Positions 26,090 through 51,660 of a stretch of DNA of 64,000 bases are shown one piece after another (the stretch's first letter is position 1; the number at the start of each line of letters is the position of its first letter). This DNA comes from Anaerolineae bacterium (GTDB taxonomy: Bacteria > Chloroflexota > Anaerolineae > JAAEKA01): contig JBAQCH010000345.1 in the NCBI GenBank assembly GCA_049294015.1, positions 4,279-68,278 on the forward strand, in the 5' to 3' direction. Under the pieces are notes generated by a model. The model saw only the letters and a program-made list of their open reading frames with translations. It searched no databases and was not told where the DNA came from. The position numbers and the translations under genes are program-made.

Positions 26090-26260
26090 TCCCCGTGCAT
26101 CCGGCGCGCTGATGTGGAGGTGCACTGCAGCCTTGAGGCGGCTGGCGATGCGGCCGTGGTACTGGCTGAACTCGCGCTCCGTCTAGTTGGACGTGACCAC
26201 CGTGGGCAGGTCGTGGTTGACGCGGTAGTTGATCAGCTGGTAGAGCTTCTCCCGCGCCCA
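26090..26260 (-). pseudogene. Fragment A of a DnaC/helicase-loader-like C-terminus with an internal stop (W to *), just downstream of the DnaB-DnaC gene
   Basis: Minus strand reads …REKLYQLINYRVNHDLPTVVTSN*TEREFSQYHGRIASRLKAAVHLHISAPDARG. It is ~85-90% nucleotide-similar to 50600-50790 and 51481-51660. It is homologous to the C-terminus of the loader domain of 26329..28527 (LYDLLDQRMAL…). Confidence 0.4.
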
Positions 26261-26328
26261 GGCCGGCGAAGCAGGCACTACAACGAGATGCGCTTCGACT
26301 GGCACCGGAACCCGGTGCAGCGATTTCG

Positions 26329-28527
26329 CTAGAACCTCGCCTCTTCCTCCCACACCGGCAGCGCGCTGAAATCCACCAGCACTGGCCGGCCGCGCTTCAG
26401 GCCCCTCTGGGCTGTGGCTACCCCTAGATGTCCATGCTGAGCTAGCTGTTGTGCAAACTCCGCCGGCAACTGGTTCAGCACCAGCAGCACTGGCCCCTGC
26501 CGGCCGCCGGTCAGCGCCATTCGCTGGTCCAGCAGATCATACAGATAGCCCACGCTCCACTCGGTAGTGCCCTTGTCGGGATCGTCCAGGATCAATACCG
26601 GTGCCTGGGTCTGCTGCCACACCTCCGCCTCGCGTCCGTTGCCATTGAAGGTGCCCTTGATCTCGCGCATGTAGCTGCGCCAGTTGAGCCACACGGCTGG
26701 CATGCCGTGCTCCAGGATCAGCGCGCGCTGCACGATGCGCGCGAGCAAGGTCTTGCCGCGGCCACTGGGGCCGAAGAAGATGGCGAAGCGGCCCTCCAGC
26801 AGGGCCGACGCCACCTGCTCCTGCGCCTGCTGCAACACCGCCGCCCGCGCGCCAACGGCCAGGAAGTCGGTGACCACAGGCGGCGTCGCGCCGTTGCGGC
26901 TCTTAGCCAGCGCAGACAGCTCGCGCAGCACCGCTTCATCCAGCCGCTGGCTGCTGGCCAGGGCCTGCCCCACCTGGGTCACCAGGCGTTTGGGATCGCC
27001 CTCCATCTGCTTGACCTGCGCGCGGCCCTGCTGCAAGACCAGCTCCAGTCCCAGCGGGTGTAGCTGCCAGTCGGCCCAGGTGTAGGGAAGCGCCTCACAC
27101 TGGCGCAGCAGCTCCAGCCGGTGTGCGCGGCGGTCGGCCTCGCCGAAGATCAGCGGCTCCGGCGTGAACTGGGAGTAGCGCGGGTTCCAGCCCACCGGGA
27201 AGTCGCCGATCTGGCCGTTGCGCGCCTTGGCCAGGATCAGCGTGGCCCGGTTGACGTCGGCCTCGGGCACGAACTGGCTCTCCCGGTGGATGAAGACGAT
27301 CACCGACGCGTCCTTCTCCCACTGGCTCGATCCTTCCAGGTCGGACATCCTGGGCCGCTTGTCCGCGCGCTTGTCGACCTCGCGGTTGAGCTGCGCCACC
27401 ACGATCACTGCGATGTGTAGCTCCTTGGCCAGCGCCTTGAGTTGGCGCGAGATGTACGCCAGCTCCTGAGTGCGGTTCTCTGTGCGCAGGCCGGCTGTCA
27501 GGAGCTGCACGTAGTCCACGACCACGAACTGGATGGCGTGGCGCAGGTGCAGGCGCTTGACGCGCGCGGCCAGATCGGCCATGGTCAGGCTGGCCGAGTC
27601 GTCGACCAGCAGGTTGTCGGTGCTGGCCCGGGCGCGCGCCGCGTCCAGCGCCTGCCAGTCCTGGATGTCGCCCAGCCTGATCTGGATGGCGGTGTAGCCC
27701 GACTCGGGCGCGAGAATGCGCTCGCCCACCTGGGTGTCCTGCATCTCCAGCGAGAAGACCGCGCCGCGCGCGCCGGTCTTGGCCGCCTGGTGCGCGATGC
27801 CCAGCGCCAGCGCGGTCTTACCGCCGCCCGGGGGCGCGGCCAGCACGATGACGTCCGAAGGCCACATGCCGCCGGTGCGCCGGTCCAGCTCGGGGATGCC
27901 GAAGGGGATGGAGACTTCGTGCCCCTCCGCGCGCAGCCGCGCGTGTTCCCTGGCCTGGGCCACGGTGTCGTTCAACACTGCGGTCAGCGTCTTGGCCCTG
28001 CGCTCTCCCTTGCGCTGGACTGCCGTCTCCACCAACTCCACAGCGCCGGCGCAAAGCCGGTCGATGCTCTTGACTTCGTAGACCGACTGGGCAATCTGGC
28101 CGGCCGCGCGCAGCAGCCGGCGAGCCACCGCGCGCTCCTCCACGATGCGCGCGTAGTGCGTCGCATGGATGGCCGTGGGCACGGCGTTGATCAAGTCCAT
28201 GACGTAGGCCGGCCCGCCCGCTTCGTCCAACTGCCGGCGGCGTTCCAGCTCGTCGGTGACGGTGAGGAAATCGGCCTTCGAGTCCTTGCCGTTCAGGTCC
28301 AGGATGGCCTGGTAGATCCAGCCATGTTTCTGCAGATGGAAGTCGTCAGCGGCCAGCAGCTCGGCGACCTCCACCACGGCGTCGGGATCGATGAGGATGG
28401 ACCCAAGCACAGCCTGCTCTGCCTCGACGTTGGCAGGGATTGGGGGTTCGTTGGGATTCGGTTCGTACACGCAGGGACCTCTTGGCACGCAGGTGAGATT
28501 TCCGGGAACCGGTTCCGACAGGCTCAA
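26329..28527 (-). CDS. Replicative helicase DnaB fused to a DnaC/IstB-like AAA+ helicase-loader domain. Start uncertain: TTG at 28527 or GTG near 28468.
   Basis: DnaB N-terminus PANVEAEQAVLGSILIDPDAV. RecA-like Walker A AAPPGGGKTALALG. DnaB C-terminus ILAKARNGQIG. A second P-loop domain FFGPSGRGKTLLA…VLILDD follows. Confidence 0.75.
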   Translation of the reverse strand: MSLSEPVPGNLTCVPRGPCVYEPNPNEPPIPANVEAEQAVLGSILIDPDAVVEVAELLAADDFHLQKHGWIYQAILDLNGKDSKADFLTVTDELERRRQLDEAGGPAYVMDLINAVPTAIHATHYARIVEERAVARRLLRAAGQIAQSVYEVKSIDRLCAGAVELVETAVQRKGERRAKTLTAVLNDTVAQAREHARLRAEGHEVSIPFGIPELDRRTGGMWPSDVIVLAAPPGGGKTALALGIAHQAAKTGARGAVFSLEMQDTQVGERILAPESGYTAIQIRLGDIQDWQALDAARARASTDNLLVDDSASLTMADLAARVKRLHLRHAIQFVVVDYVQLLTAGLRTENRTQELAYISRQLKALAKELHIAVIVVAQLNREVDKRADKRPRMSDLEGSSQWEKDASVIVFIHRESQFVPEADVNRATLILAKARNGQIGDFPVGWNPRYSQFTPEPLIFGEADRRAHRLELLRQCEALPYTWADWQLHPLGLELVLQQGRAQVKQMEGDPKRLVTQVGQALASSQRLDEAVLRELSALAKSRNGATPPVVTDFLAVGARAAVLQQAQEQVASALLEGRFAIFFGPSGRGKTLLARIVQRALILEHGMPAVWLNWRSYMREIKGTFNGNGREAEVWQQTQAPVLILDDPDKGTTEWSVGYLYDLLDQRMALTGGRQGPVLLVLNQLPAEFAQQLAQHGHLGVATAQRGLKRGRPVLVDFSALPVWEEEARF

Positions 28528-28540
28528 CCCAAGGGTTTCG
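28501..28540. repeat. ~40-nt composite hairpin element GGAACCGGTTCCGACAGGCTCAACCCAAGGGTTTCG, one of four copies
   Basis: Near-identical copies lie at 35090-35130, 42521-42560 and, inverted, 41557-41594. Each contains the palindromes CGGAACCGGTT(T)CG and AACC-N4-GGTT. Confidence 0.5.
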
Positions 28541-28559
28541 CGACCGTGCGCCGCAGGCG

Positions 28560-28985
28560 CTACAGAGCCAGAGCGACCAGGTCAGCCCAGCGCTCGCCAG
28601 TTTCCTCGCCCCAGTGGTGTCGGGACGCCAGCGCAGTCCCGCTGCCGTCGTAGTCGCGTTCGCAGTCATCGCAGGTATTGAGCCAGGAAGATGCCAGTTC
28701 CAGCCGCGCGCCGCACAGGCAGCGCGCGATAGCAGGATAGCGGATGGTGCGCCGCTCGCATATCACGCCGTCGAAGATGATGGCGCGGCCGCTTCTTCCC
28801 TGGCCTGTGCAGCACATGCGCAAGCTTTCCAGTCCATCCGGGTGCAGAGTTGCTTCGTCCACGTTGCCAGACGCGTCGCAAGGAAAGGCCCAGCCGCAGC
28901 CAGGCGCATCGGCCAAGGAAAAGGACAGCCGGTATTCCTCGATGTTTTCCAGGCGCGCGTCTTCAATGATTGACAGTGCCATCAT
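28560..28985 (-). CDS. Hypothetical phage-module protein
   Basis: Start MMALSII is coupled to the upstream stop (ATGATGG overlap). Confidence 0.4.
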   Translation of the reverse strand: MMALSIIEDARLENIEEYRLSFSLADAPGCGWAFPCDASGNVDEATLHPDGLESLRMCCTGQGRSGRAIIFDGVICERRTIRYPAIARCLCGARLELASSWLNTCDDCERDYDGSGTALASRHHWGEETGERWADLVALAL

Positions 28986-29440
28986 GCCTCCTTGTCGTAC
29001 CAGTGGATGACGCCAGGCGTCGCCATCAAGCCTTGCAGCCACGCATCCCTTTGCCGGATCGCCGCAGCGCGCTCAGCCTCGATCCTCTCATCGGTCACGC
29101 CTGCGTAGTAGTCCGGTTTCTTGGCCAGCTCTTCCTCGATGATCTGGTCGGCCAGCAGCGGATACTTCGCTTTGACCCTGCGGGCCAGACGCTTCTGGCG
29201 CACCGCTGCCAGCGCTTTCTGGCTCAGCGGCTTGATAGGCGCTTCGATGGGACACCAGGAGATGACCCAGCCACTGCCAATCACGTGCAACTCAGCCAGC
29301 TCAGCGGGACATCCGCCCCAACCGTAGTTGGGGTGTTCCACAGGGAAGAAGACCTCAGCGCGCACGCGTGGCAGTCCATCGCGGGGTGTGGTGTAGGGAT
29401 TGGACCAGCGCAGCGACCAGACGCTGCCAAGGACAGTCAT
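28982..29440 (-). CDS. Hypothetical phage-module protein
   Basis: Protein-like composition in the leftward operon. No motifs. Confidence 0.4.
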   Translation of the reverse strand: MTVLGSVWSLRWSNPYTTPRDGLPRVRAEVFFPVEHPNYGWGGCPAELAELHVIGSGWVISWCPIEAPIKPLSQKALAAVRQKRLARRVKAKYPLLADQIIEEELAKKPDYYAGVTDERIEAERAAAIRQRDAWLQGLMATPGVIHWYDKEA

Positions 29441-29461
29441 GGGTGGTCTCCTGTGCGGCTT

Positions 29462-31177
29462 TCACTGCACGATGGGCGCCACGCGCGCCAGGAGGGCGTC
29501 CATCAGGACGGGCGGGTTGGCGTTGCCGATCTGCCTCACCTGATCGCGCTGGCTGCCCAGGATCACATAGTCCCGGGGAAACGACTGCGCCAGCTTGCAC
29601 TCGGCCGCGGTCAACATGCGGAACAGGCAGTCCTCCAGCGCCGGCCGCTGGGGAGATACGATCAGGCTGTGCCGGTCCACCGTCGTGACTGTGGGCAGCG
29701 CCTTTTCGACAGGCTGCGGCACAGAATGGCTGTAGTAGGACATCACCAGGGCGTGGTGCAGGCCGCCAGCCGTGACTGTGCCCAGCGGCCCGTCGACTCC
29801 GATGGCTGTCTGGTGGTTGCGCAGCTGCGCCAGGAAGGGCACAGCCAGCAGCCCGTGCTGGATGGCCGTCACCTGGGTGCTGAGCGGCTGGTCTGCGCCG
29901 GTGGTCTTGAAGTGGTCTGCGCCGTCCACGTTGCGCATGGCGACCACAGCCGGCGTGGCCAGCAGCCATTGCTGGATGCCAGCAGCCACCTGGGTGGGCA
30001 GCGGACCCTCGACTGGCTGCACCTGGTAGTGATCGCGGTTGGCGTCGCGCATGGAGACGATGGCCGGCACAACCACGCCCAGGTTCTGGCGGGCAGTCTG
30101 AGCCGGCAGCTCGCGGGTGACCTCGCGCGCCGGATGGCTGTTGTCGCCGTGGTCGGTGTAGACGACGAAGGGGCTGACCACCAGGCCCACAGACTGGGTG
30201 GCCGCCTGGGTCGGCATTACTCCACAAACATGCCGCACACGTTGGGCCGGGCTGTTTGTCTGGCTGATGTTGACGGTGAAGGCATCCCAGAACTTGTCCA
30301 AACCGGCCTGGATGCGTTCCATGGTGCGAGGCTTGAGCGGCCGCTGGCGGTCGCCAATGCGCTGCATGGGCAAACGCCAGTCGATCACGTTGGCCGCAGC
30401 GTAGTAGTATGGCGTCACCACGTTGGCGCACATAGGGCAGCGGTAGACATACTGGCCGCGTTCGCCCCAGCGGCCCCAGCGGCTGCCTGGCTTCTTCCAG
30501 GATTGGACGGCTTCGATCTCGACGCCGCAGTGTTGGCAAGGCGCCAGCGGCCGGAAGTCCAGATCGGGCTTGGGCAGGCCCTTGCGCCAGAGCACCACGA
30601 ACATGCGGTCGCGGGACTGAGGCACGAAGTCGCCCACAGCCAGGCCAGCGTGGGGACGCATGTGGGCAAACATGGCGTTGATGTAGACCACCTGCCACTC
30701 ATAACCCAGCTTGTGCAGCGCGCGCAGCCACTCTGGGAACAGCCGCCACTTGCGGAAGTCCACCACGTTCTCGACGATGATGGCGTTGTAGCGATGCACC
30801 TCGGCGAAGCGCACCACATCCCAGGCAGTGGCGCGCGAGCGTTCGGCGGCCGGGTCGAACTGGACGTTGCCGAACAGATCGGCCTGCGCCTCACGCTTCT
30901 TGCCGCTGGCCAGGCTATGATTAATGCACTCAGGGCTAGTGATCAGCACGTCGGTGCGGCCGTAGCGGGCCGGATCAACCTTGCCCACGTCAGCGCAGTC
31001 GTGGAAGGTATCAGGGAAATTGGCGCTGTGGCTTTCCACGGCCAACTGCCAGTGGTTGACGGCGTACACGACGCGCAGACCGCGCCGGGCCGCGCCAGCA
31101 GACGAGCCGCCTGCGCCGCAGAACTGGTCGAAGACCGTGGGGGTGACGTTGCCGCCGAACTGACGAATGTGTGTCAT
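29462..31177 (-). CDS. DNA (cytosine-5)-methyltransferase with an enlarged variable region built from ~5 degenerate ~40-aa repeats (candidate multi-TRD)
   Basis: Motif I FDQFCGAGGSSAG. Motif IV-like ITSPECINHSLASGKK. Motif ENV IIVENV. C-terminal QIGNANPP. Repeats LPAQTARQNLGVVVPAIVSMRD, LPTQVAAGIQQWLLATPAVVAMRN and LSTQVTAIQHGLLAVPFLAQLRN. Confidence 0.8.
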   Translation of the reverse strand: MTHIRQFGGNVTPTVFDQFCGAGGSSAGAARRGLRVVYAVNHWQLAVESHSANFPDTFHDCADVGKVDPARYGRTDVLITSPECINHSLASGKKREAQADLFGNVQFDPAAERSRATAWDVVRFAEVHRYNAIIVENVVDFRKWRLFPEWLRALHKLGYEWQVVYINAMFAHMRPHAGLAVGDFVPQSRDRMFVVLWRKGLPKPDLDFRPLAPCQHCGVEIEAVQSWKKPGSRWGRWGERGQYVYRCPMCANVVTPYYYAAANVIDWRLPMQRIGDRQRPLKPRTMERIQAGLDKFWDAFTVNISQTNSPAQRVRHVCGVMPTQAATQSVGLVVSPFVVYTDHGDNSHPAREVTRELPAQTARQNLGVVVPAIVSMRDANRDHYQVQPVEGPLPTQVAAGIQQWLLATPAVVAMRNVDGADHFKTTGADQPLSTQVTAIQHGLLAVPFLAQLRNHQTAIGVDGPLGTVTAGGLHHALVMSYYSHSVPQPVEKALPTVTTVDRHSLIVSPQRPALEDCLFRMLTAAECKLAQSFPRDYVILGSQRDQVRQIGNANPPVLMDALLARVAPIVQ

Positions 31178-35035: not shown

Positions 35036-35116
35036 TTGACGTTCCTTTCCGTTGTCGCTATCATAATGCGCCGCAGGCGCTACTGCTGGTCCGGAACCGG
35101 TTTCGGCAGGCTCAAC

Positions 35117-35818
35117 CTAAAGGTTCCGAGATTGCGCGCCGCAGGCGCTGCTGTGTTGAAACAAGATCACGCTTTCGTAGTCCACCCTGGCGTCGCGGTT
35201 CTGGCCAAAGCGCATGCCGGGACAGTCGATGTGAACATGCTCCAGCACCCGGAAGCCCAGGCCTTCCAGCGCCTCGATGTGCCAGTCTGTCACCGGCTGC
35301 ACGACGCCGCGGCGGATGTGATCCTTGATGTTCAAGACAAACAGCCCGCCTGGCTCCAGCACCCGCCGCGCTTCCGTCCAGGCCGCCAGATGAAACGACC
35401 TGTACTTCGGTCCCCAGGGCAAGGCGCCGCCGTTGTCCGGGTGCAGCTCGCGCGCCAGCTCGCTGGCGTAGGTCTTGCGCTTGTGCCGATCACGCAGCAA
35501 TTTATCACAGAGGCGATTCCCATATGGTGGGCTCGTAACCAGGGCGTCGAAGTAGCCATCGGGCCAGGGTAGATGCAGCGCGTTGCCCAGCGTGGTGCGC
35601 GGGTGCTGCTCTGCCCATTCGCGCTCGATCTCGACTCCGGACACCTCGGCGTCGGGCAGCCAGTGGTTGAGCAGGAACACCTTGCCGGTGCCGGCGAACG
35701 GATCGAGGATGCGCTGCCTGCCCTTGAGCATGCGCGCAAACGTGACCAGCAGGGCGTCGGTGTACTTGGCTGGGTGTTTTCGCTTCTCGGTGGGCAGGGC
35801 AAACAGTGCAGTGTCCAT
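35117..35818 (-). CDS. N6-adenine/N4-cytosine DNA methyltransferase (SPPY motif, motif I before IV)
   Basis: DPFAGTGKV is motif I. LVTSPPYGN is motif IV. Confidence 0.75.
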   Translation of the reverse strand: MDTALFALPTEKRKHPAKYTDALLVTFARMLKGRQRILDPFAGTGKVFLLNHWLPDAEVSGVEIEREWAEQHPRTTLGNALHLPWPDGYFDALVTSPPYGNRLCDKLLRDRHKRKTYASELARELHPDNGGALPWGPKYRSFHLAAWTEARRVLEPGGLFVLNIKDHIRRGVVQPVTDWHIEALEGLGFRVLEHVHIDCPGMRFGQNRDARVDYESVILFQHSSACGAQSRNL

Positions 35819-35822: not shown

Positions 35823-38120
35823 TCAGTTCCCTCGGAACCGGTTCCGCAGCATGTCGCCCAGGAAGGTGACGCGGCGCACGCGCTCCTCGTTCTGGACGTA
35901 GGTCTGCAAGGCCGACTGAGCCGAGATCAGCACACAGTAGGTCTTGGCCCTGGTCAGCCCGGTGTAGGCCAGCTGGCGCAGCATGAAGTCAGGGCGGGTG
36001 GTGGGAAGGGCCAGCACCACGTGGCCATGCTCGCTGCCTTGGCTTTTGTGGACGGACAGCGCATAAGCCAGCTTGAGATAGCCCAGGTCCTCGCGCGTGT
36101 AGGTGGTGACGTCCGGCTCGCCGTCGAACTGCACGTCGAGTACCGGTGGCAGCTCGTCGTCGCCCTCTTCCCTGCGCCGGATATCCATTCCGCGCTCTTC
36201 CTCGTCGCTGGCCACCCACTGCACCATGCCCACCATGCCGTTGAGCACAGTCTGGCCGCGAAGATCGTAGACGTTTCGGGTGTGGATCACCTTGTCGCCC
36301 GGCTTGAAGGGACAGCCCTTGAGCGGGAACGGCCCAGGGTTGTAGCGCTCCTGCAGGCGCAGGTTGAGCGCGTGCTGGCCCCAGGGATGGTTGTTCAAGG
36401 GTGTCAGCACCTGGATGTCGTGGATGGACAAGCCGCAAGCGATAAGATCGCTTACCCACCGCAAGAGATGTGTGGGCAATGATGCATTGCTGCTTGCATA
36501 CTCGATCTCGATGTCGTCGTAGCCCGACAGATCAGGCACCAGGCCGCGGTTGAAGCTGTGGGCCGCCACGATGATGCCGGAATGCTTGCCCTGGCGGTGG
36601 ATGACTGTGAGGCGCGCGACAGGTACCACACCGCTGTGGATCAGCTGGAAGAAGGGTTCGCCCGCGCCCACCGGCGGCAGCTGATCCACGTCGCCCACGA
36701 AGATCAGCCGCGTTCGGTCGTTGCACGCCTTGACGATCCGGCGCATGAGGGCCGCATCGATCATCGAGGCTTCGTCGATGGTCACTGCATCAGTCTGGAA
36801 GCTGTACCTGGCCTCTTCATCGCCGAAGATGCCCAGGGTGCGGTGGATGGTGGCGGCCGGCAGCCCGGTGGCCTCGGTCATGCGCCGCGCAGCCTTGCCG
36901 GTGGGCGCGCACAACGTCAAGCTCAGGCCATGCGCCTGCATGATGTTGCAGATGGTGCGCAACACTGTCGTCTTGCCCACGCCGGGCGCGCCGGTGATCA
37001 CCACCAGCCGATGGGCCAGCGCCAGCCGCACCGCCTCTACCTGATCGGGCGAGAGGGCGAAGTCGCTGTATTCGTCCAGGCAGCGGCGAATGGTTTCCCA
37101 GTCGCCCACCGCCGCGCCAGGGTTCTGAAGCATCCGCGCGATGCCGGCCGCAGTCTCTTCCTCGATCTCGAAGTAGGGTGCCAGGTACAGCCACTCGCCT
37201 TGTAAGAGCAGGTAGTCGTCCTCGTAGCGCGCCCGCACCTTCTGCTCGAAGCCGTCCAGGCGGGGCCTGGCCAGCTGGCGCGCGCGCTGAAGGGCATCGG
37301 TCTCAGCCAGCGCCATGTGCCCTTGGGTGTAGGCCTCGCGCAGCACCTCCCGCACAGCCGCGCCATAGCGCCGCGCGTCGTCGTGATCGATCTTTGCCTT
37401 GCCCGGCCAGGCCAGCGCCGCGATCTCGTCCGCGCGCTGCCAGGTGACGCCATTGATCACTGTGAGCAGGTAAGGGTTGTCGTTGATGATCTGCACCAGC
37501 CGCTCGCCGAAGCGCTGGTAGGCTTCCCTGGCCTGGCGCGTCGTCAGCCCCGCGCGCACCGAAGCAAGCGCGGCCTGCGCCCAGTGCCGCTGCGCTTTCC
37601 ACGACTCCACGATCCAGTAGCAGTTCTTGGGGCCGATGCCCGACACTACCCGCAGCTTGTTGGGATCGTCCAGCGCCTCGTCCAGCCGCGCGAAGGTTGC
37701 CGCACCGAAGGCCTGGGCGATGCGCTGGGCCATGGCGACCTTGACGCCCTTCAAGAAGCCGCTGGCCAGCAGCACTTGCAGGGCGCTGGCCTGGTCAGTG
37801 AGCATCACGCTGGACGCCTTGAACTGCCGGCCATAGTGCGGGTGATCCACCCACTGGCCGGCCACTGTTACCTGCGCGCCTGGGGCCAGGAACATGGCCG
37901 TACCCACCAGCGGGATCTCGCCCTTGCCGCGGCGCAGCGTGGCCACGAAGAAGCCGGTGGCGGGATCGCGGTAGCCGACCGCCACGATCTCGCCGGTGAT
38001 GACCGGCTCGTCGGGAAGGGCGTCGCTGGGCGCCGGGCCTGGCCCATAGCTCACCGTCCAGGTGGGCGCTGGCTCCAGCAGCTCCAGCAGGTTGTCTGGG
38101 TCGGGTGTGTAGAACATCAT
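35823..38120 (-). CDS. RecD/RecD2-like SF1 DNA helicase
   Basis: Walker A VITGAPGVGKTTV. IDEASMID. FVGDVDQLPPVGAG. LTRAK near the C-terminus. The last codons, RNRFRGN, are encoded by a GGAACCGGTTCC palindrome. Confidence 0.8.
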   Translation of the reverse strand: MMFYTPDPDNLLELLEPAPTWTVSYGPGPAPSDALPDEPVITGEIVAVGYRDPATGFFVATLRRGKGEIPLVGTAMFLAPGAQVTVAGQWVDHPHYGRQFKASSVMLTDQASALQVLLASGFLKGVKVAMAQRIAQAFGAATFARLDEALDDPNKLRVVSGIGPKNCYWIVESWKAQRHWAQAALASVRAGLTTRQAREAYQRFGERLVQIINDNPYLLTVINGVTWQRADEIAALAWPGKAKIDHDDARRYGAAVREVLREAYTQGHMALAETDALQRARQLARPRLDGFEQKVRARYEDDYLLLQGEWLYLAPYFEIEEETAAGIARMLQNPGAAVGDWETIRRCLDEYSDFALSPDQVEAVRLALAHRLVVITGAPGVGKTTVLRTICNIMQAHGLSLTLCAPTGKAARRMTEATGLPAATIHRTLGIFGDEEARYSFQTDAVTIDEASMIDAALMRRIVKACNDRTRLIFVGDVDQLPPVGAGEPFFQLIHSGVVPVARLTVIHRQGKHSGIIVAAHSFNRGLVPDLSGYDDIEIEYASSNASLPTHLLRWVSDLIACGLSIHDIQVLTPLNNHPWGQHALNLRLQERYNPGPFPLKGCPFKPGDKVIHTRNVYDLRGQTVLNGMVGMVQWVASDEEERGMDIRRREEGDDELPPVLDVQFDGEPDVTTYTREDLGYLKLAYALSVHKSQGSEHGHVVLALPTTRPDFMLRQLAYTGLTRAKTYCVLISAQSALQTYVQNEERVRRVTFLGDMLRNRFRGN

Positions 38121-39313
38121 GAGATTACCACGTTCTCCCAGCCGCGCGGCACATATTTGCGCTTCAGGGCCTCGTAGCTGTCTGGGTCTTCCTCTTCCGG
38201 AACGGGCGGAGGTTGCTCGTGGGCGCGTAGCCGCTTGACCAGGTAGCCCACCGGGCGCGCCATGTCCTGGGTGGCCAGGTACGCGATCCAGCCGTCAACC
38301 ATCGCCCGGTCGACGCCGTTGCGGGACAGCTCGGATAGCGCGGGCTCCGCAACGCCGAATTCCCTTAGGGCCTGATAGACATCCGGTTTCACAGTTCCCT
38401 TGGCAGCAGGAGAAGCGCGGGGATCGGGCTGCACGCGCGTGCGCGAAGAAGTGCCCGGCAGCGCCTTGCCCAACCCACTGCTCCTGGGATCGGGCTGCCC
38501 GCGCGCGCGCGAAGAAGTGCTGCTGCTGCTGTTTTTCACAGAAGAATCTTGATTCTTAGATTCTCTGCCATTACTTCTCTGAGCAGCAGAAGCAGCAGAC
38601 GCGCGCGCGACGCGCGCGCGCGTTGGCGGCGCGTTGGCGGCATCACTGTCGCCGTTGCGCTGTTTCGTGACATCCGCGCCGGAGTCGTTGTCAGCGTTGC
38701 GCTGTTTCGTGACATCCGCGCCGGAGTCGTTGTCACCATTTCGTTGTTTCGTGACATCCGCGCCGGAGTCATTGTCAGCGTTGCGCTGTTTCGTGACATC
38801 CTTGCCGGCATCACTGTCAGCGTTTCGCTGTTTTGTGACATCCTTGCCGGCATCGTTGTCGCTTGAATCCGCTATGATGCCGGGATCGGCCGGTGTGACT
38901 GGGGCAGCGGCAGGCGCCAATCCAGTCAGAGCGTCATCGACGCGGATCAGCCCTTTAGCGGTTCGCTCATAACCAGGAGGTGGAGCAAACATGCTGGGCG
39001 TTTCGCGTGCGTAACGACTGATCAGCTCTTGATTCTTGAAGAACAATACCGGCTGATCGCTGTCGGGGTCGTGATAAAGGACAACCAGATCGGCGGCAAC
39101 CCACTCCTGGATCAGGTCGGCCATAATGTTTACCAGATCGGAGGCGCACAAGGGTGCTACCTGTGCCATTAGCAGCAGAGGCTCGCCAAGAATCAGCCTA
39201 TCTCTGTCCAGGTGGGGGATGGTCATCATGTAGACCGCCTTAGCCTGCCAGGAGAGGCGGTTCAGGGCTTTGTCGGTGGTTATGGTCTTGCTCAAGAATC
39301 GTCCAGTGGTCAT
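38117..39313 (-). CDS. Phage-module protein with five 14-aa tandem repeats (ADVTKQRN[AG]DNDSG) and a Ser-rich region, possibly an origin/DNA-binding factor
   Basis: Five 42-bp tandem repeats, a ~60-bp duplicated Ser/Arg segment, and an alternating (CG)n tract. Structured N- and C-terminal domains. Confidence 0.55.
   Translation of the reverse strand: MTTGRFLSKTITTDKALNRLSWQAKAVYMMTIPHLDRDRLILGEPLLLMAQVAPLCASDLVNIMADLIQEWVAADLVVLYHDPDSDQPVLFFKNQELISRYARETPSMFAPPPGYERTAKGLIRVDDALTGLAPAAAPVTPADPGIIADSSDNDAGKDVTKQRNADSDAGKDVTKQRNADNDSGADVTKQRNGDNDSGADVTKQRNADNDSGADVTKQRNGDSDAANAPPTRARVARASAASAAQRSNGRESKNQDSSVKNSSSSTSSRARGQPDPRSSGLGKALPGTSSRTRVQPDPRASPAAKGTVKPDVYQALREFGVAEPALSELSRNGVDRAMVDGWIAYLATQDMARPVGYLVKRLRAHEQPPPVPEEEDPDSYEALKRKYVPRGWENVVIS
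38648..38857. repeat. Five tandem 42-bp repeats inside gene 38117..39313
   Basis: gtc[ga]c[cg][ga]tt[gt]cg[ct]tgttt[ct]gtgacatcc[gt][ct]gccgg[ac][ga]tc[ga][ct]t, five times. Confidence 0.7.
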
Positions 39314-41532: not shown

Positions 41533-41594
41533 GGGAACCGGTTCCGGTGTGGCGCGCGGAACCCTTGGGTTGAGCCTGTCGAAACCGGTTCCGG
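41533..41594. repeat. GGGAACCGGTTCCG palindrome plus an inverted copy of the ~40-nt composite hairpin element
   Basis: ctgGGAACCGGTTCCGgtgtggcgcgCGGAACCCTTGGGTTGAGCCTGTCGAAACCGGTTCCGG. Confidence 0.5.
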
Positions 41595-42503: not shown

Positions 42504-42541
42504 TTGGGCATCCTTACCTTTCGGAACCGGTTTCGACAGGC

Positions 42542-42811
42542 TCAACCTGAAGGTTCCGAAAACAACAGAGGCTGCACCCAGCCAGCCGGGTTTTTGTTGG
42601 GTGCTGCGGCTGCGGCCGAGCAGCGCCCGTAGCCGGGCACGACCTCCATCGCCAGCCGGTCCCGATCTGGGTGCGGCTGGCCGCCGTACGTGTCGTGGCC
42701 GCTGGGTCGCTTGCACGGCGTGCCAACGGCCGCGCGGCACACCGGGCACTCGACTTCCAGAGCAGGATCGCGCGGCCACTGCCGGCCGCAGAGAGAGCAC
42801 TTGATGGCCAT
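42542..42811 (-). CDS. Zinc-finger small protein whose C-terminus overlaps a composite hairpin element
   Basis: CSLCGRQW…CPVCRAAVGTPCK. Confidence 0.35.
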   Translation of the reverse strand: MAIKCSLCGRQWPRDPALEVECPVCRAAVGTPCKRPSGHDTYGGQPHPDRDRLAMEVVPGYGRCSAAAAAPNKNPAGWVQPLLFSEPSG

Positions 42812-46381: not shown

Positions 46382-46411
46382 ATAGGCTCCTTAGCAGAGG
46401 TCAGATTTCTT

Positions 46412-46425: not shown

Positions 46426-46432
46426 GTTGAAA

Positions 46433-47056: not shown

Positions 47057-47447
47057 AACACCTGATACTCCTGGCAGCCGGCTGCGCAAGGCGCGCGAGC
47101 GCCTGGGATTGCAGCAGATCGAACTGGGCAGGAAGCTGGGCGTGTCCGGCTCCTACATCTCCCGCATCGAACGCGACGTGGTGAAGATCCAGCCTATGGT
47201 GCTGCGCCTGGCCGAGGCGCTGGACGTGAGCGTGGACTACCTGTTGGTCTTACGCGACACACCGCAGCGCGACGCCACAGGGACTGCGCTCTACGAGTCC
47301 ACCCAGGACGAGCTGGTGGCCATACGCCTTCTGCGCATGGTCATCGACGGGCTGCCGCCGGAAGATCGCGTGCGGCTGATCCACTACCTGATCAAGCAGG
47401 CTGGCATCTACAAAGAAACCTTCCAAGCGACGCGCGACAGAGACTGA
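47046..47447 (+). CDS. XRE-family HTH regulator
   Basis: LRKARERLGLQQIELGRKLGVSGSYISRIERDVVKIQPMVLRLAEALDVSVDYLL. Start taken at MTTETP. Confidence 0.55.
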   Translation: MTTETPDTPGSRLRKARERLGLQQIELGRKLGVSGSYISRIERDVVKIQPMVLRLAEALDVSVDYLLVLRDTPQRDATGTALYESTQDELVAIRLLRMVIDGLPPEDRVRLIHYLIKQAGIYKETFQATRDRD

Positions 47448-47629
47448 CGCTTCACTTGGCTGGGCCCAGAACCCGGTTCCGGCCTGCCGCCGGCTGCATC
47501 CAGCCCGCCTGCGCACGCCGTAGAGCCTGTTCCGATGACGATGGGAGGGCGCCCTAGTGACCTTCCACGCTGTCTTTGTTTCACGACGTAACTTGATCGA
47601 TTATCAAAGTAGTTATATAATCCTATCTG

Positions 47630-47944
47630 ATGAAACCGTTGCGATTTATTGGCTCAAGTCTGGATGATTTGCGTGACTTCCCTGCCGAGGCGCGTAGGCA
47701 GGTAGGTTTCGAGCTCTATGCCGTGCAGCGCGGGTTGGAGCCAACGGACTGGAGGTCAATGCACGAGGTTGGGCCAGGTGTCCGCGAGATCCGCATTCAC
47801 GTTCTTGGTGAATGGCGTGTGCTCTACGTGGCCAGGTTTGCCGGGGCCATCTACGTGCTACATGCCTTTCGCAAGAAGACGCAGAAAACACGGCGTGAGG
47901 ACATCGAACTTGCGCGCCAGCGCTGTCGTCAGATCGAGGAGTGA
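47630..47944 (+). CDS. RelE-superfamily Gp49/HigB-like toxin, copy 1
   Basis: MKPLRFIGSSLDDLRDFPAEARRQVGFELYAVQRGLEP…YVLHAFRKKTQKT. Paired with the HTH gene 4 nt downstream. Confidence 0.6.
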   Translation: MKPLRFIGSSLDDLRDFPAEARRQVGFELYAVQRGLEPTDWRSMHEVGPGVREIRIHVLGEWRVLYVARFAGAIYVLHAFRKKTQKTRREDIELARQRCRQIEE

Positions 47945-47947
47945 ACC

Positions 47948-48244
47948 ATGAGTGAGATGATCATCGAGTCCAGCGGCAATGTCTTTTCGGATCTTGGATT
48001 TGAACCTGGGGAAGCAGCGATTCTGCAGATGCGGGCCAAACTGATGAGCGACCTCCGCATGCGTATCGAGGCCAGCGGCATGACGCAGACGGAGGCGGCG
48101 CACAAGCTGGGCATTGCCCAATCGCGTGTGTCTGACCTGATGCGCGGCAAGTGGGAGAAGTTTAGCCTGGAAATGCTGATCACTCTGGAGGCGCGGTTGG
48201 GGCGCCAGGTGCATCTCGAATTCGCCGCCGCTGCAGCTAACTGA
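47948..48244 (+). CDS. HTH (XRE) antitoxin partner of the Gp49-like toxin, copy 1
   Basis: TQTEAAHKLGIAQSRVSDLMRGKWEKFSLEMLITLEARLG. Confidence 0.6.
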   Translation: MSEMIIESSGNVFSDLGFEPGEAAILQMRAKLMSDLRMRIEASGMTQTEAAHKLGIAQSRVSDLMRGKWEKFSLEMLITLEARLGRQVHLEFAAAAAN

Positions 48245-48258
48245 GACGCGCAGCAGCT

Positions 48259-48582
48259 TTGACCGAGGTTAAAACAGTGGCTGCCGAGCAAGATGTTCAG
48301 CGAATTGTCCCCATCGTCCGAATACCCGGCGTGCATGGCGGCCGTCCCGTGTTGCGCGACACCGGGGTGAGCGTGCAGACCATCGTGGAGCAGTCGCAGC
48401 TAGGTCGCTCCCCGCAGCAGATCGTCGAAGACTTCGAGGATGTACTGACCCTGGCGCAGGTCCACGACGCGCTCAGCTACTATCACGAGCACCCGACCGA
48501 GGTCGATCAATTCATCGCCCAGAACCGCGAGGCGCTGTGGCAGGGATCCCCGGTAACGGCACCTGCCTGCCCTCAGAGTTGA
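48259..48582 (+). CDS. DUF433-like antitoxin-type protein
   Basis: IVRIPGVHGGRPVLRDTGVSVQTIVEQSQLGRSPQQIVEDF follows the DUF433 pattern. Confidence 0.5.
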   Translation: MTEVKTVAAEQDVQRIVPIVRIPGVHGGRPVLRDTGVSVQTIVEQSQLGRSPQQIVEDFEDVLTLAQVHDALSYYHEHPTEVDQFIAQNREALWQGSPVTAPACPQS

Positions 48583-48699
48583 CGCGCCCGATGAAAACAT
48601 GATTGTGGTGGATTAGCAACGGGAGTTCACGGAGTGTGGCAGTTTCTTCCCATTTGACACACACCGCGAGCACGACGACGGCATCGGCGCAGGGACGAT

Positions 48700-49137
48700 A
48701 TGAGGCTTGCCATGACGCTAAAACCGATCAAGAGTGAAGAGGATTACGCAGCAGCGTTGCAGGAGATCGAGCAGCTCTGGGATGCCGAGCCAGGCACGCC
48801 GGAGAGCGACACGCTGGAGATTTTGATCACGTTGGTCGAAGCTTATGAGCGGGGGCGCTACGACCTTCCCTCTCCTGATCCGATTGCTGCGTTGGAGTAC
48901 TTCATGGAGAGCCGCGCTTGGACGCGCAAGCAATTGGAGCCCTACATCGGCAGTCGCGGCCGCGTTTCGGAGATTCTCAGCCGCAAGCGGCCACTGACGT
49001 TGGCGATGATCCGTCGTCTAGAACAGGCCACTGGGATCCCGGGTTCGGTGCTCATCCAGCCCTATGAGACCGAACACGGCCATTCCGGCGTGACATCGCG
49101 CAATCTCTCACGCGTCAGCCAACTTGCTACCAGGTAA
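48700..49137 (+). CDS. HigA-like HTH antitoxin, E. coli HigA type, apparently orphan
   Basis: SRGRVSEILSRKRPLTLAMIRRLEQATGIPGSVLI matches the C-terminal HTH of E. coli HigA. Confidence 0.55.
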   Translation: MRLAMTLKPIKSEEDYAAALQEIEQLWDAEPGTPESDTLEILITLVEAYERGRYDLPSPDPIAALEYFMESRAWTRKQLEPYIGSRGRVSEILSRKRPLTLAMIRRLEQATGIPGSVLIQPYETEHGHSGVTSRNLSRVSQLATR

Positions 49138-49199
49138 GCTGTTTTCGACCGCCCTGAGACCGCCGCCGTTGTCGGTCTAGCCGCTGCAATGAAGATGAT

Positions 49200-49469
49200 A
49201 TGGCCCTGAACGATCTGCCCAGCGATATGGAACGGCTAGAGGAAGAACTTCGCCACTTCGAGGCTAGGTTCGGTATGAAGTCCCAAGATTTCCACGACGC
49301 CATGCGGCGCGGCGACCTGGGGGAATTCGACGCGCTGGACGACTACCGCATGGAGTTTGTCGAGTGGCTTGCACTCTACAAGACGCGGGCCAGCCTGGAT
49401 GAGAGGTATCGCCGCTTGGCCGGCCCAATGACGCCATCAGACGCTCCCTCGTGGGATGCTGCTGGCTAG
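49200..49469 (+). CDS. Hypothetical small acidic protein
   Basis: Protein-like composition. It overlaps the higA stop region. Confidence 0.35.
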   Translation: MALNDLPSDMERLEEELRHFEARFGMKSQDFHDAMRRGDLGEFDALDDYRMEFVEWLALYKTRASLDERYRRLAGPMTPSDAPSWDAAG

Positions 49470-49783
49470 GCAGGAACAGCCAGCGGTTGTATGCGCATCA
49501 GGTCCGCCTGGCTGCGTCGCTCCGACTCCCAGAGGTCCCTGGCCTGCTGAGCGTTGAGCCAGAACGCAGCCGAGTTGCCGAACAGGCGGGACAGGCGCAG
49601 CGCCATCAGCGGCGTGACCGCCCGCTCCTCGCGCAACAGCTCGTGAACGGTCTGGCGCGACACACCCAACGCCGTAGCCAGCGCACTGGTCGTCAATCCG
49701 TAATCCGGCATGAAGTCCTCGCGCAACATCTCGCCCGGATGCGTCGGTGGGATCTGTCGTGGTTCTGTGTTCGCGATGGCCAT
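49466..49783 (-). CDS. higA: HigA-family HTH antitoxin
   Basis: EMLREDFMPDYGLTTSALATALGVSRQTVHELLREERAVTPLMALRLSRLFGNSAAFWLNAQ. Confidence 0.65.
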   Translation of the reverse strand: MAIANTEPRQIPPTHPGEMLREDFMPDYGLTTSALATALGVSRQTVHELLREERAVTPLMALRLSRLFGNSAAFWLNAQQARDLWESERRSQADLMRIQPLAVPA

Positions 49784-49795
49784 CGTTCTTACACC

Positions 49796-50077
49796 TCAGT
49801 GATAGTCCGCAATCTCAACATCGTAGGCATCACCAGCCACGAAACGAAAGCAGATGCGCCATTGGTCGTTGATCGAGATGGCGTATTGCCCTTCCCGATC
49901 ATCCTTCAGGGCATGAAGGCGGTTGCTCGGCGGTACTTTGAGATCGCTCAATTCGCTTGCCAGGTCGATGTACTCCAATCTTCGCACGGCTCGCTTCACC
50001 AGGTCAGGCGGCAGTCGCCTTGACTTGCCGGTGACGTAGAGTTGTTGCGTTTCTCGATCGGCAAACGTTTTGATCAT
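49796..50077 (-). CDS. higB: HigB-family (RelE/ParE-fold) toxin
   Basis: MIKTFADRETQQLYVTGKSRRLPPDLVKRAVRRLEYIDLA… is the classic HigB N-terminus. It lies upstream of higA. Confidence 0.65.
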   Translation of the reverse strand: MIKTFADRETQQLYVTGKSRRLPPDLVKRAVRRLEYIDLASELSDLKVPPSNRLHALKDDREGQYAISINDQWRICFRFVAGDAYDVEIADYH

Positions 50078-50313
50078 GGAATGATTGTAACGCGTCACGT
50101 GACAGTTGTCAAGCTGCAAAGCTGTCCAATGTCGGGCGCAGCGGAAAGAAGATGCCCACCAATCTGCGGCCTATCCGACCACGTTGACCACATGTTTGAC
50201 AGGAAGAAAGCAGGCGAGTACAATCTGCGTCAGGCCCAGTTAATGGTGCCAGAAGGCGGCCAACACCCACCAAGGGACTATCGTGCTTGAGAGGTGCCCG
50301 CCCAACCAGTGAA

Positions 50314-50329
50314 CCACTATATATAGTGG
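50314..50329. repeat. Perfect 16-bp palindrome CCACTATATATAGTGG beside a tRNA fragment
   Basis: ACTACAT(A/C)T arm-like repeats lie nearby at 50348-50356 (+), 50440-50448 (inverted) and 50470-50476 (+). Confidence 0.5.
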
Positions 50330-50383
50330 TTGTCTAACCAAATAGACACTACATATGGGCATATTGCTTGGACAACTGAACTT

Positions 50384-50433
50384 AGGGCTTCATAATCCCT
50401 AGGTCGGTGGTTCGAGCCCACCCGTCGCCACCA
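50384..50433 (+). tRNA. tRNA-Met(CAU) 3' portion only (anticodon arm, variable loop, T-arm, acceptor 3' strand, CCA). There is no matching 5' half, consistent with an att-site scar.
   Basis: AGGGC-TTCATAA-TCCCT, AGGTC, GGTGG-TTCGAGC-CCACC, CGTCGCC-A-CCA. The upstream sequence cannot pair with CGTCGCC. Confidence 0.5.
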
Positions 50434-50483
50434 AGCACAATATGTAGTAGTCCGAAAATCCAGGCGCATACTACATCTAGTGG

Positions 50484-50513
50484 CTCCCGCTGCAAAGCGG
50501 GAGTTCGTTTTTT
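50484..50513 (+). terminator. Intrinsic terminator, an 8-bp stem CTCCCGCT-GCAA-AGCGGGAG followed by TTCGTTTTTT
   Basis: Classic GC stem plus T-tract, 50 nt after the tRNA 3' end. Confidence 0.65.
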
Positions 50514-50599
50514 CGCCTGCCAACAGAAAGAAGTGCGCGCCTGGGAGAGCAACGCCTACATCCCGACGCAGGAGCGGGGCCTCTCCTCGTCCTGCGTCA

Positions 50600-50790
50600 G
50601 TAGCTCGGTGCTGGTTTTGTGCGCCTGGCCGAACACTACCTGCCCACGATGGTCGCATCCAACTGGACGGAGCGCGAGTTCAGCCAGTATCACAGCCGCA
50701 TCGCCAGCCGCCTCAAGGCCGCGGTGCATGTCCACATTAGCGCGCCGGATGCGCGGGGAAAGATTGGGAGAGGAGGATCGCCATGACCAA
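50600..50790 (+). pseudogene. Fragment B of the DnaC/loader-like C-terminus
   Basis: EHYLPTMVASNWTEREFSQYHSRIASRLKAAVHVHISAPDARGKIGRG. No upstream part and no start. Confidence 0.4.
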
Positions 50791-50825
50791 TGCCCGGCTC
50801 GCCTTGTCGATCGAGCGGCGCGGTC

Positions 50826-51119
50826 CTATGCGACTGCTCCGGCAAACTCCAAGATCACCTGGCGTCCCATGCGAGCTTCCAGGGTGACCAGCATCTCAAG
50901 ACTGAACTTCTCCCACTTGCCGCGCATCAAGTCAGACACGCGCGACTGGCCGACGCCCAGCCGTTGCGCAGCTTCAGTCTGCGTCATGCCGCTGGCCGTG
51001 ATGCGTTCCCGCAGATCGTTCATCAGCTTGGCCCGCATCTGCAAGATCGCTGCCTCGCCAGGCTCAAACCCCAGATCAGTGAAGACATTGCCGCTGGACT
51101 CGATGATCACCTCATTCAT
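50826..51119 (-). CDS. HTH antitoxin, inverted copy 2
   Basis: ~90% identical to 47948..48244. Confidence 0.6.
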   Translation of the reverse strand: MNEVIIESSGNVFTDLGFEPGEAAILQMRAKLMNDLRERITASGMTQTEAAQRLGVGQSRVSDLMRGKWEKFSLEMLVTLEARMGRQVILEFAGAVA

Positions 51120-51122
51120 GAC

Positions 51123-51437
51123 TCACTCCTCAATCTGCCGAAAGCGCTGGCGCGCCAACTCAATATCCTCACGCCGCGTCTTCTGTGTCTTCTTGCGAAA
51201 TGCGTGCAACACGTAGATGGCGTCGGCAAACCGGGCGACGTACAGCACGCGCCATTCGCCCAACACGTGGACACGAATCTCCCGAACACCGGATCCGACC
51301 TCGTGCATCGGCCGCCAGTCCGAAGGCTCTAGCCCGCGTTGGACAGCATAGAGTTCGAAGCCGACCTGCCGCCGCGCCTCGGCAGGAAAGTCGCGCAGGT
51401 CATCCAGGCTAGAGCCGACAAAGCGCAGCGGTTTCAT
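51123..51437 (-). CDS. Gp49/HigB-like toxin, inverted copy 2
   Basis: ~95% identical to 47630..47944. The same promoter stretch, TATCAAAGTAGTTATATAAT, sits upstream. Confidence 0.6.
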   Translation of the reverse strand: MKPLRFVGSSLDDLRDFPAEARRQVGFELYAVQRGLEPSDWRPMHEVGSGVREIRVHVLGEWRVLYVARFADAIYVLHAFRKKTQKTRREDIELARQRFRQIEE

Positions 51438-51480
51438 TACGTCTGATTATATAACTACTTTGATAAGGGGCCAAGTTACA

Positions 51481-51660
51481 CGATTACCGCGTGCAGCAAT
51501 GCACCACGACCTGCCCACGGTGGTTACATCCAACTGGACGGAGCGCGAGTTCAGCGAGTATCACAGCCGCATCGCCAGCCGCCTCAGGGCCGCGGTGCAT
51601 GTCCACATTAGCGTGCCGGATGCGCGGGGGAAGATTGGGAGAGGAGCCGTGTTGTGAGCT
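51481..51660 (+). pseudogene. Fragment C of the DnaC/loader-like C-terminus
   Basis: …NHDLPTVVTSNWTEREFSEYHSRIASRLRAAVHVHISVPDARGKIGRGAVL*. Confidence 0.4.

What the first reader, a model, noticed from the sequence alone, without database searches (positions are those of the whole stretch)
26090..51660. Three dispersed copies of a DnaC-like C-terminal gene fragment mark recombination scars
A ~170-190-nt segment encoding …LPTVVTSNWTEREFSQYHSRIASRLKAAVHVHISAPDARGKIG occurs three times: 26090-26260 (minus, with a TGG-to-TAG stop), 50600-50790 (+) and 51481-51660 (+). It is a diverged homologue of the C-terminus of the loader domain of the DnaB-DnaC fusion gene. The ORF track shows near-identical alternative-frame translations for copies B and C (50407.. 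and 51491..). Copy A abuts the 3' end of the fusion gene. Copies B and C bracket the inverted toxin-antitoxin copy next to the tRNA scar. These look like leftovers of related elements that recombined or integrated here repeatedly.
Basis: seen in the sequence. Interest (0 to 1): 0.55.

Follow-up and report, generated by a model that had tools for sequence, protein, structure and literature searches.

The report
Phage helicase-loader gene remnants flanking cargo
Three leftover pieces of the tail end of a phage-type DNA-helicase-loader gene sit beside toxin-antitoxin and other accessory genes; they are scars of recombination between related prophage-like elements of Anaerolineae bacteria, a real but fairly ordinary feature.

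Summary
There are three copies of a ~142-nt segment: A at 26075-26217 on the minus strand, B at 50634-50775 and C at 51503-51646 on the plus strand. B and C are 94% identical, and A is 88% identical to each (E 1e-44 to 1e-58). A carries TAG in place of TGG.

The segment is the 3' end of a DnaC/IstB-type AAA+ helicase-loader gene. I found that gene intact in prophage-like elements of Anaerolineae that use a serine recombinase (L004, L008, L034/P0045; also an IMG/VR contig). There it is the last gene of the replication operon, or is followed only by small genes, and it lies just before a variable block of accessory genes on the opposite strand.

Fragments of this 3' end recur in about 30 Chloroflexota contigs, often several per contig in direct orientation. 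They lie between toxin-antitoxin (TA) and defence genes.

Copy A is a mosaic joint. The closest relative of the DnaB-loader fusion gene (90% nt) lacks it.

B and C still recombine. In a 99.8%-identical strain, 3 of 13 differences fall in B, and all three match C.

An integron attC-like site is rejected (no hairpin). An att-site duplication is not supported.

One point is unexplained: pN/pS is about 0.3 among fragments, including a group with a frameshifting duplication that supplies an ATG.

Verdict: a new member of a known kind. Interest is modest.

The parts
26054..26265 (-). Copy A: 3' fragment of a DnaC-like loader gene (AWAREKLYQLINYRVNHDLPTVVTSN*TEREF...). The core shared with B and C is 26075-26217. 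It is dead: TAG replaces TGG and there is a 1-nt deletion near the end.
   Evidence: tblastn with P0045 gives 93% over 59 aa
26266..26328 (-). Junction between the stop codon of the fusion gene and copy A. It holds a short palindrome (caccgggttccggtg) also seen after the fusion-gene 3' end in L020/L021, then a possibly decayed Walker-B stretch (HLVVVPASPA vs LLALDDFGAQSDTA).
   Evidence: The homology of the decayed stretch is judged by eye only.
26329..28527 (-). DnaB helicase (N- and C-terminal domains) fused to a DnaC-like AAA+ domain. It is complete and is the last gene of the minus-strand phage-like early/replication operon.
   Evidence: Pfam, PHROG and NCBIfam; homologues of 700-750 aa
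25385..25933 (+). Cargo gene after copy A, on the opposite strand (DUF4760), in a low-GC stretch.
25057..25343 (-). Two short conserved non-coding segments (25057-25194 and 25249-25343). In other contigs they lie beyond a different single cargo gene that follows a fragment copy, so they form the far flank of the cargo slot.
50634..50775 (+). Copy B: the reading frame is intact over 47 codons. Upstream sequence is unrelated.
50776..50832 (+). B-type linker after the fragment. It is 90% identical to L001-L003, where it adjoins a different gene on the opposite strand.
50826..51437 (-). Toxin-antitoxin pair: Gp49/HigB-like toxin 51123-51437 and HTH_37 antitoxin 50826-51119. A promoter-like site lies at 51446-51474.
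   Evidence: The unit 'second half of the fragment + this TA pair' is 87% identical over 661 nt in a Caldilineales MAG (L006).
51481..51657 (+). Copy C: a decayed upstream stretch, then an ATG-initiated 52-codon ORF (51499-51657) that ends at the natural stop codon of the loader gene.
51654..51736 (+). 5' part of a small CxxC zinc-ribbon-like gene that follows the loader gene in related elements (start codon overlaps the loader stop).
47588..48216 (+). Second copy of the Gp49/HTH_37 TA pair, 81% identical to 50852-51479 and inverted. No fragment copy flanks it.
50380..50431 (+). tRNA-like 3' fragment (anticodon-loop-like CAT, T arm, acceptor, CCA), followed by a terminator-like hairpin at 50482-50505. 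The contig of a 99.8%-identical strain (L010) begins at 50388.
   Evidence: sequence read. Not called by ARAGORN or Rfam.

Best explanation
The three copies are non-functional remnants of the 3' end of a stand-alone DnaC/IstB-type helicase-loader gene. That gene belongs to a family of prophage-like elements of Anaerolineae (Chloroflexota).

In intact elements the order is: serine recombinase, repressor, Cro-like HTH, DUF1064, a 373-aa protein, the loader, small genes. The loader is therefore at or near the end of the replication operon, directly before a slot that holds variable accessory genes on the opposite strand (TA pairs, restriction and defence genes).

Because the loader's 3' end is the conserved edge of that slot, it travels with the cargo and is retained with it when elements recombine and decay. 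(Inferred.)

Copy A is the joint where a 'loader 3' end + cargo' block from such an element was joined to a different replication module, the DnaB-loader fusion operon, by illegitimate recombination. (The joint is shown. The mechanism is inferred.)

B plus its TA pair, and C plus the zinc-ribbon gene start, are the cargo-side remains of two further related elements stacked next to a tRNA-like fragment. (Inferred.)

TA addiction plausibly explains why the TA and its immediate flanks persist while the rest is deleted. (Inferred.)

The repeats are still substrates for homologous recombination. B and C exchange sequence by gene conversion (shown by strain comparison). As direct repeats they could loop out or re-insert the TA cassette. 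(Inferred.)
For: - Copies are real and significant.
- The source gene is intact in L004 6169-6999, L008 5329-6195 and P0045/L034, with IstB_IS21 and Bac_DnaA Pfam hits. Its element layout has a large serine recombinase and opposite-strand Mrr and NTPase cargo. An identical gene lies on an IMG/VR viral contig.
- About 30 contigs from Anaerolineae, Anaerolineales and Caldilineales carry fragments. Up to three copies occur per fetched contig, and multi-copy contigs always have them in direct orientation.
- Neighbours of fragments are PIN, Gp49/HTH, DUF5615/DUF433, TumE, AbiEii, DUF4160 and similar genes.
- The same flanks enclose different cargo genes in different contigs.
- Fusion-gene relatives have the same operon and an opposite-strand defence block. 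The closest relative with downstream sequence (L038) shows no fragment, and homology stops at 26329.
- Many copies carry stops, frameshifts, truncations or an IS insertion.
- Gene conversion: 3 of 13 window-vs-L010 differences fall in B and all three equal C (P about 0.002 for the clustering).
Against: - Several independent 5' ends of short copies cluster within about 20 nt (reference positions 184-204) with unrelated upstream sequence. Purely random deletion does not predict this clustering. One case is an IS3-family insertion.
- pN/pS among fragments is about 0.25-0.30. This holds even in a group that shares a frameshifting 10-nt duplication. Dead sequence should not show this unless variation is imported from intact genes by conversion.
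- No remains of a recombinase or of other core genes lie next to B and C, so 'stacked decayed elements' is a reconstruction, not an observation.
Confidence: 0.62

Rival explanations
1. Att-site duplication. Small cargo-carrying integrative elements target the 3' end of the loader gene and bring a replacement 3' end. Each integration leaves a displaced 3' fragment, and repeated integration builds fragment-cargo-fragment arrays.
For: - Direct repeats of a gene's 3' end flank a cargo unit (B-TA-C).
- Arrays are always in direct orientation.
- 5' boundaries recur near reference positions 124 and 184-204 with unrelated upstream sequence.
- A protein with two tyrosine-recombinase domains follows one copy in L027.
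Against: - No recombinase lies next to B and C or next to most copies.
- Boundaries are fuzzy (about 10 nt either way) and no shared core motif was seen.
- In no array is the first copy joined to an intact gene.
- In the intact elements the recombinase sits at the far end, next to a CBS-domain gene.
- One boundary is simply an IS insertion with a 3-bp duplication.
Confidence: 0.13
2. Retained mini-gene. The last ~50 codons of the loader (from sensor-I TSN to the end) are kept as a small protein. In one group a 10-nt duplication provides its start codon. It could, for example, interfere with helicase loading of competing phages.
For: - pN/pS is 0.25-0.30 among fragments, including the group with the frameshifting duplication.
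- Many copies keep an intact 47-52-codon frame with an ATG or GTG start.
- The fragment is more conserved than the flank after it (0.09 vs 0.17 variability per site).
Against: - Recent changes look neutral: B vs C has 2 synonymous and 6 non-synonymous changes, and close pairs have a ratio of about 1.
- A has a stop and a frameshift. Other copies are truncated at either end or broken.
- Some copies lack a start codon.
- Conversion from intact genes, of the kind seen, can import 'selected-looking' variation.
- No expression evidence exists.
Confidence: 0.1
3. Integron-like attC recombination sites separating gene cassettes (an attC cluster without an integrase).
For: Repeats of about 140 nt are spaced 0.8-3 kb apart with TA cassettes between them, as in chromosomal integrons.
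Against: - Neither strand folds into a hairpin. Folding is weaker than shuffled controls (z +1.1 to +3.3).
- The repeat is plainly a coding remnant, collinear with an intact gene.
- Boundaries vary.
- No intI gene was seen.
Confidence: 0.02

Closest known systems
Mosaic joints and gene remnants in temperate phage genomes (lambdoid-phage style modular exchange by illegitimate or short-homology recombination; from general knowledge)
   Same: A partial gene is left at the boundary where one replication module was joined to another element's downstream block. Related elements share the flanks but differ in content.
   Different: The same remnant is spread over many contigs and occurs several times per locus. 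It is interleaved with TA and defence genes, in Chloroflexota rather than in enterobacterial phages.
Accessory-gene (moron or defence) hotspots flanked by conserved core genes in prophages and satellites (e.g. P2/P4-type hotspots; from general knowledge)
   Same: There is a fixed slot after the last replication gene. It is filled with different opposite-strand cargo in different relatives: Mrr/NTPase, AIPR-DUF4420-Z1-HATPase, DUF4760, TA pairs.
   Different: Pieces of the flanking core gene are themselves duplicated between cargo units. This is not a described feature of those hotspots as far as I know.
Displaced gene-3'-end repeats at the ends of integrative elements (attL/attR)
   Same: Direct repeats of the 3' end of a gene bound a cargo unit.
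   Different: There is no adjacent integrase, no precise core and no intact target gene at the array start.
Integron cassette arrays and Acinetobacter pdif modules carrying TA systems
   Same: Short repeats separate small cassettes, many of them TA pairs.
   Different: The repeat is a coding remnant without attC-like structure. No XerC/D-type or IntI-type site or enzyme was identified.

Membership tests
DnaC/DnaI/IstB-type AAA+ helicase loader (the source gene) | AAA+ core with Walker A, Walker B, sensor I and a C-terminal arginine-containing segment; matches to PF01695 (IstB_IS21) and PF00308 (Bac_DnaA) | tested here: met
   The intact gene has GCGKT, DLLALDD, TSN and SRL..PDAR. P0045 carries PF01695 and PF00308. 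NCBIfam hits to the DnaC, DnaI and IstB families are all below their curated cut-offs.
DnaC/DnaI/IstB-type AAA+ helicase loader (the three window copies as functional genes) | A complete ATPase domain | tested here: not met
   Only the last 47-63 codons are present. A also has a stop codon and a frameshift.
Integron attC site | Imperfect palindrome that folds as single-stranded DNA into a hairpin (R''-L''/L'-R') | tested here: not met
   Both strands of all three copies fold less well than shuffled sequences.
Integron attC site | Association with an integron integrase or an attI site | tested here: not met
   No tyrosine recombinase was found among the window ORFs scanned.
attL/attR duplication of a site-specific integrative element | An identical core at both repeat boundaries and an integrase inside the bounded segment | tested here: not met
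   B-TA-C contains only the TA pair. Boundaries in 30 loci are not precise.
Type II toxin-antitoxin, HigB/Gp49 toxin with HTH antitoxin (the bracketed cargo) | Adjacent small toxin (PF05973) and HTH antitoxin (PF13744/PF01381) genes in one operon | tested here: met
   E-values of 1.9e-25 and 8e-18; a second copy gives 9.8e-24 and 2.5e-19. Activity was not tested.
Prophage cargo hotspot bounded by conserved sequence | The same flanks with different intervening genes in related elements | tested here: met
   The fragment and zinc-ribbon gene start lie on one side and the 25057-25343-like segments on the other. Between them lie DUF4760, an AAT-like gene, a 285-aa gene or a hydrolase in different contigs.

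The most novel reading that the evidence does not exclude
The loader-gene 3' end has been co-opted in one of two ways. It may act as a portable homology arm: 'fragment + TA/defence' units loop out between direct repeats and re-insert by homologous recombination into any related element's loader gene. Alternatively it may be a ~52-aa mini-protein under purifying selection (pN/pS about 0.3), given its own ATG by a 10-nt duplication, which interferes with helicase loading.
Probability: 0.12. Interest if true: 0.6.

Novelty: new member of a known kind. Interest (0 to 1): 0.33.

Why it matters
It identifies a family of temperate, phage-like elements in Anaerolineae, a poorly studied group. These elements have a defined accessory-gene slot after the replication genes. 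The remnant of the loader gene is a convenient sequence marker for finding TA and defence cargo and old recombination joints in Chloroflexota genomes. The gene-conversion signal shows that such remnants keep reshaping the locus. It does not change current ideas about how phage genomes become mosaic.

Tried and rejected
1. 'No full-length homologue exists.' My first protein search, with a 63-aa query, returned only proteins of 40-110 aa. This was an artefact of the short query. The intact gene turned up in fetched loci and in a second search.
2. attC-like recombination site. Rejected by folding.
3. A known RNA. No Rfam match at gathering scores. Only a meaningless weak hit appeared in a permissive scan.
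4. A precise site-specific breakpoint. The junction alignments show clustering but no shared core. One cluster member is an IS3-family insertion.
5. The fragment as a constant companion of the DnaB-loader fusion gene. Rejected, because the fusion-gene relatives with downstream sequence (L038, L040-L042) lack it. L039 ends too soon after the gene to tell.
6. Viral-contig search with the fusion protein found nothing.
7. A conserved hairpin in the segment beyond the cargo (25057-25194). It is perfect in L013 but not conserved in the window or L028.
8. PADLOC, NCBIfam and Pfam gave nothing for the genes next to C (51812-52051 and 52067-53293) or for 23574-24905.
Full report
**1. Observation**

BLAST of the window against itself finds three and only three copies of a ~142-nt segment:
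- A: 26075-26217, minus strand.
- B: 50634-50775, plus strand.
- C: 51503-51646, plus strand.

B and C are 94.4% identical (E 1e-58). A is 88% identical to each (E about 4e-44). A protein-level search finds no fourth copy.

All three translate to ..LPTVVTSNWTEREFSQYHSRIASRLKAAVHVHISAPDARGKIG... A has TAG in place of TGG plus a 1-nt deletion near the end.

A's homology extends 5' to 26265 (AWAREKLYQLINYR), 64 nt after the stop codon of the gene at 26329-28527. C's conserved unit runs 51481-51736.

B and C bracket a Gp49/HigB-like toxin (51123-51437, minus) and an HTH_37 antitoxin (50826-51119, minus). This pair is 81% identical to an inverted second copy at 47588-48216.

**2. What the fragment comes from**

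The gene next to A encodes a complete DnaB helicase fused to a DnaC-like AAA+ domain. That domain is only a distant relative of the fragment: 25% identity over 145 aa with the intact loader, E 2e-7.

The real source is a separate stand-alone loader gene. A first search with a 63-aa query returned 44 proteins, all 40-110 aa long. That wrongly suggested no intact gene exists. The fetched loci show otherwise:
- L004 6169-6999 (Anaerolineae bacterium clx_CAG2).
- L008 5329-6195.
- P0045/L034.

Each encodes an intact protein of 225 aa (P0045) up to 276-288 aa (from the first ATG in L004 and L008). It has Walker A (GCGKT), Walker B (DLLALDD), TSN, and the same C-terminus and stop codon as the fragments. 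P0045 carries PF01695 and PF00308. An identical gene lies on an IMG/VR viral contig.

In these elements the order is as follows:
- a host CBS-domain gene;
- a large serine recombinase;
- an HTH repressor;
- then, divergently: a Cro-like HTH, DUF1064, a 373-aa protein, the loader and a 71-aa gene;
- then opposite-strand cargo: a 309-aa gene, Mrr and a 719-aa NTPase.

The loader thus sits at the conserved edge of a variable cargo slot. A small CxxC zinc-ribbon-like gene whose start overlaps the loader's stop follows it in many loci. C retains its first ~80 nt.

**3. The fragment is a dispersed family**

Pattern and protein-guided scans retrieved about 30 contigs, assigned where named to Anaerolineae, Anaerolineales and Caldilineales. 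One of them (L010) is 99.8% identical to window 50388-57645.

Many contigs hold two or three copies, always in direct orientation.

Copies vary in extent:
- from the Walker-B region onward (reference position 76);
- from about position 124 (like B and C);
- or only the last 60-80 nt.

Many carry stops, frameshifts or internal deletions. One long copy (L028) is split by an IS3-family element with a 3-bp duplication.

The neighbours are overwhelmingly small accessory genes:
- Gp49/HTH pairs;
- PIN toxins;
- DUF5615/DUF433;
- TumE (a toxin described in PMC10584680, found through);
- AbiEii;
- DUF4160;
- hydrolases and a kinase-like gene.

L033, part of a 315-kb contig, shows fragment-TA-fragment-TA within 1.3 kb.

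The unit 'second half of the fragment + the same TA pair as in the window' is 87% identical over 661 nt in a Caldilineales MAG (L006). This indicates horizontal movement of fragment and cargo together.

Beyond the first cargo gene after A lie two short segments (25057-25194 and 25249-25343). The same segments recur beyond different cargo genes in other contigs. So the slot has conserved flanks on both sides.

**4. Copy A is a mosaic joint**

Relatives of the fusion gene (700-750 aa; P0165 is 95% identical) sit in the same kind of operon: HTH_36, a RecD2- or UvrD-type helicase, methylases, then the fusion gene. In L038 and L040 opposite-strand cargo follows, for example AIPR-DUF4420-Z1-HATPase in L038.

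In L038, nucleotide homology to the window (90%) stops exactly at the stop codon (26329), and no loader fragment follows. Two other contigs (L020/L021) carry only the last ~95 nt of a fusion-type gene. This is followed by the same short palindrome and then the fragment from position 125.

The A junction therefore joins two different replication-module types. It has itself been inherited and further deleted elsewhere.

**5. The repeats are still recombining**

Between the window and L010 there are 13 differences in 7258 nt. Three of them fall inside the 142 nt of copy B. At all three, L010 has the base found in copy C. The binomial probability of that clustering is about 0.002. This is a gene-conversion signature between B and C.

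**6. Alternatives tested**

- attC-like sites. Neither strand of any copy folds into a hairpin, and folding is weaker than in shuffled sequences. Rejected.
- Known RNA families. None at Rfam gathering scores.
- Site-specific integration into the loader's 3' end. The 5' ends of short copies cluster near positions 184-204 with unrelated upstream sequences, which is suggestive. However, the junctions are not precise and no core motif is shared. No recombinase accompanies them. No array begins with an intact gene. This remains a minority possibility.
- A retained mini-protein. pN/pS is 0.12 between the two intact genes and 0.25-0.30 among fragments. This includes a group that shares a 10-nt tandem duplication (ATGCACCCAG), which breaks the full-length frame but supplies an ATG just before ..HNDLPTVVTSNW. 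Against this, the most recent differences look neutral. B vs C shows 2 synonymous and 6 non-synonymous changes, and close pairs have a ratio of about 1. Conversion from intact genes could also import variation that looks selected. I leave this as unexplained, with low probability of function.

**7. Most likely account**

Shown:
- the copies;
- their origin from a stand-alone loader gene;
- the position of that gene at the edge of a cargo slot;
- the family-wide association with TA and defence cargo;
- the mosaic nature of A;
- conversion between B and C.

Inferred:
- B+TA and C+zinc-ribbon start are the cargo-side remains of two further related elements.
- TA addiction favours survival of these ends.
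- Direct repeats can loop cassettes out and in by homologous recombination.

The tRNA-like fragment at 50380-50431, with its terminator-like hairpin, and the break of contig L010 at 50388 both suggest an island boundary there. No intact tRNA or integrase is in the window.

**8. Novelty**

Gene remnants at phage mosaic joints and cargo hotspots next to core genes are well known. New here are the particular element family in Anaerolineae and the wide spread of one remnant as a repeated marker between TA and defence genes. I rate it a new member of a known kind, with modest interest.

Noticed in passing
window 4481-22812: Genes of an Hma-type defence system: SNF2 helicase with NOV_C (4481-8113), DUF1156 methylase (8909-11695), and a HEPN_Swt1-DUF499 ATPase matching PADLOC HmaC at 1082 bits (19504-22812). 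The ATPase is separated from the other two genes by about 7.8 kb of lower-GC DNA with a TPR/HEAT/SH3 protein and two ABC permease genes.
   Followed up: partly
window 28505-28561, 35091-35149, 41555-41594, 42522-42559: Four copies of a ~38-nt intergenic element (CGGAACCGGTTTCGACAGGCTCAACCCAAGGGTTCCG, ends complementary) lie within the phage-like early operon, one of them inverted. It is also present in the related contig L038. A related short palindrome follows the fusion gene's stop codon. It may be a regulatory or terminator motif.
   Followed up: partly
window 38634-38860: A 42-nt tandem repeat (5 copies, 89% matches) inside the ORF 38117-39313. That ORF has no Pfam, PHROG or PADLOC match.
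   Followed up: partly
window 48700-49137: This 145-aa HTH protein matches only the first 125 of 402 positions of PADLOC PD-Lambda-2_B (E 1.7e-38). It may be a truncated defence gene. A DUF433 antitoxin-like gene lies just upstream (48259-48582), 84% identical at the DNA level to one beside a fragment copy in L033.
   Followed up: no
window 26329-28527 and loci L038-L042: DnaB helicase fused to a DnaC-like AAA+ domain in one 700-750-aa protein. Only eight full-length relatives plus one shorter (561-aa) relative were listed among 5.8 billion proteins. Where gene context is available they sit in an operon with a RecD2- or UvrD-type helicase and DNA methylases.
   Followed up: partly
L027 1316-3301: A 661-aa protein with two Phage_integrase and two SAM-like domains (a tandem tyrosine recombinase) lies directly after a fragment copy and a TumE cassette.
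   Followed up: no
L009, L011, L013, L014, L018, L019, L028 (e.g. L028 1121-1149): A shared 10-nt tandem duplication (ATGCACCCAG) inside the loader fragment shifts the frame of the full-length gene. It also creates an ATG or GTG directly before the last ~50 codons.
   Followed up: partly
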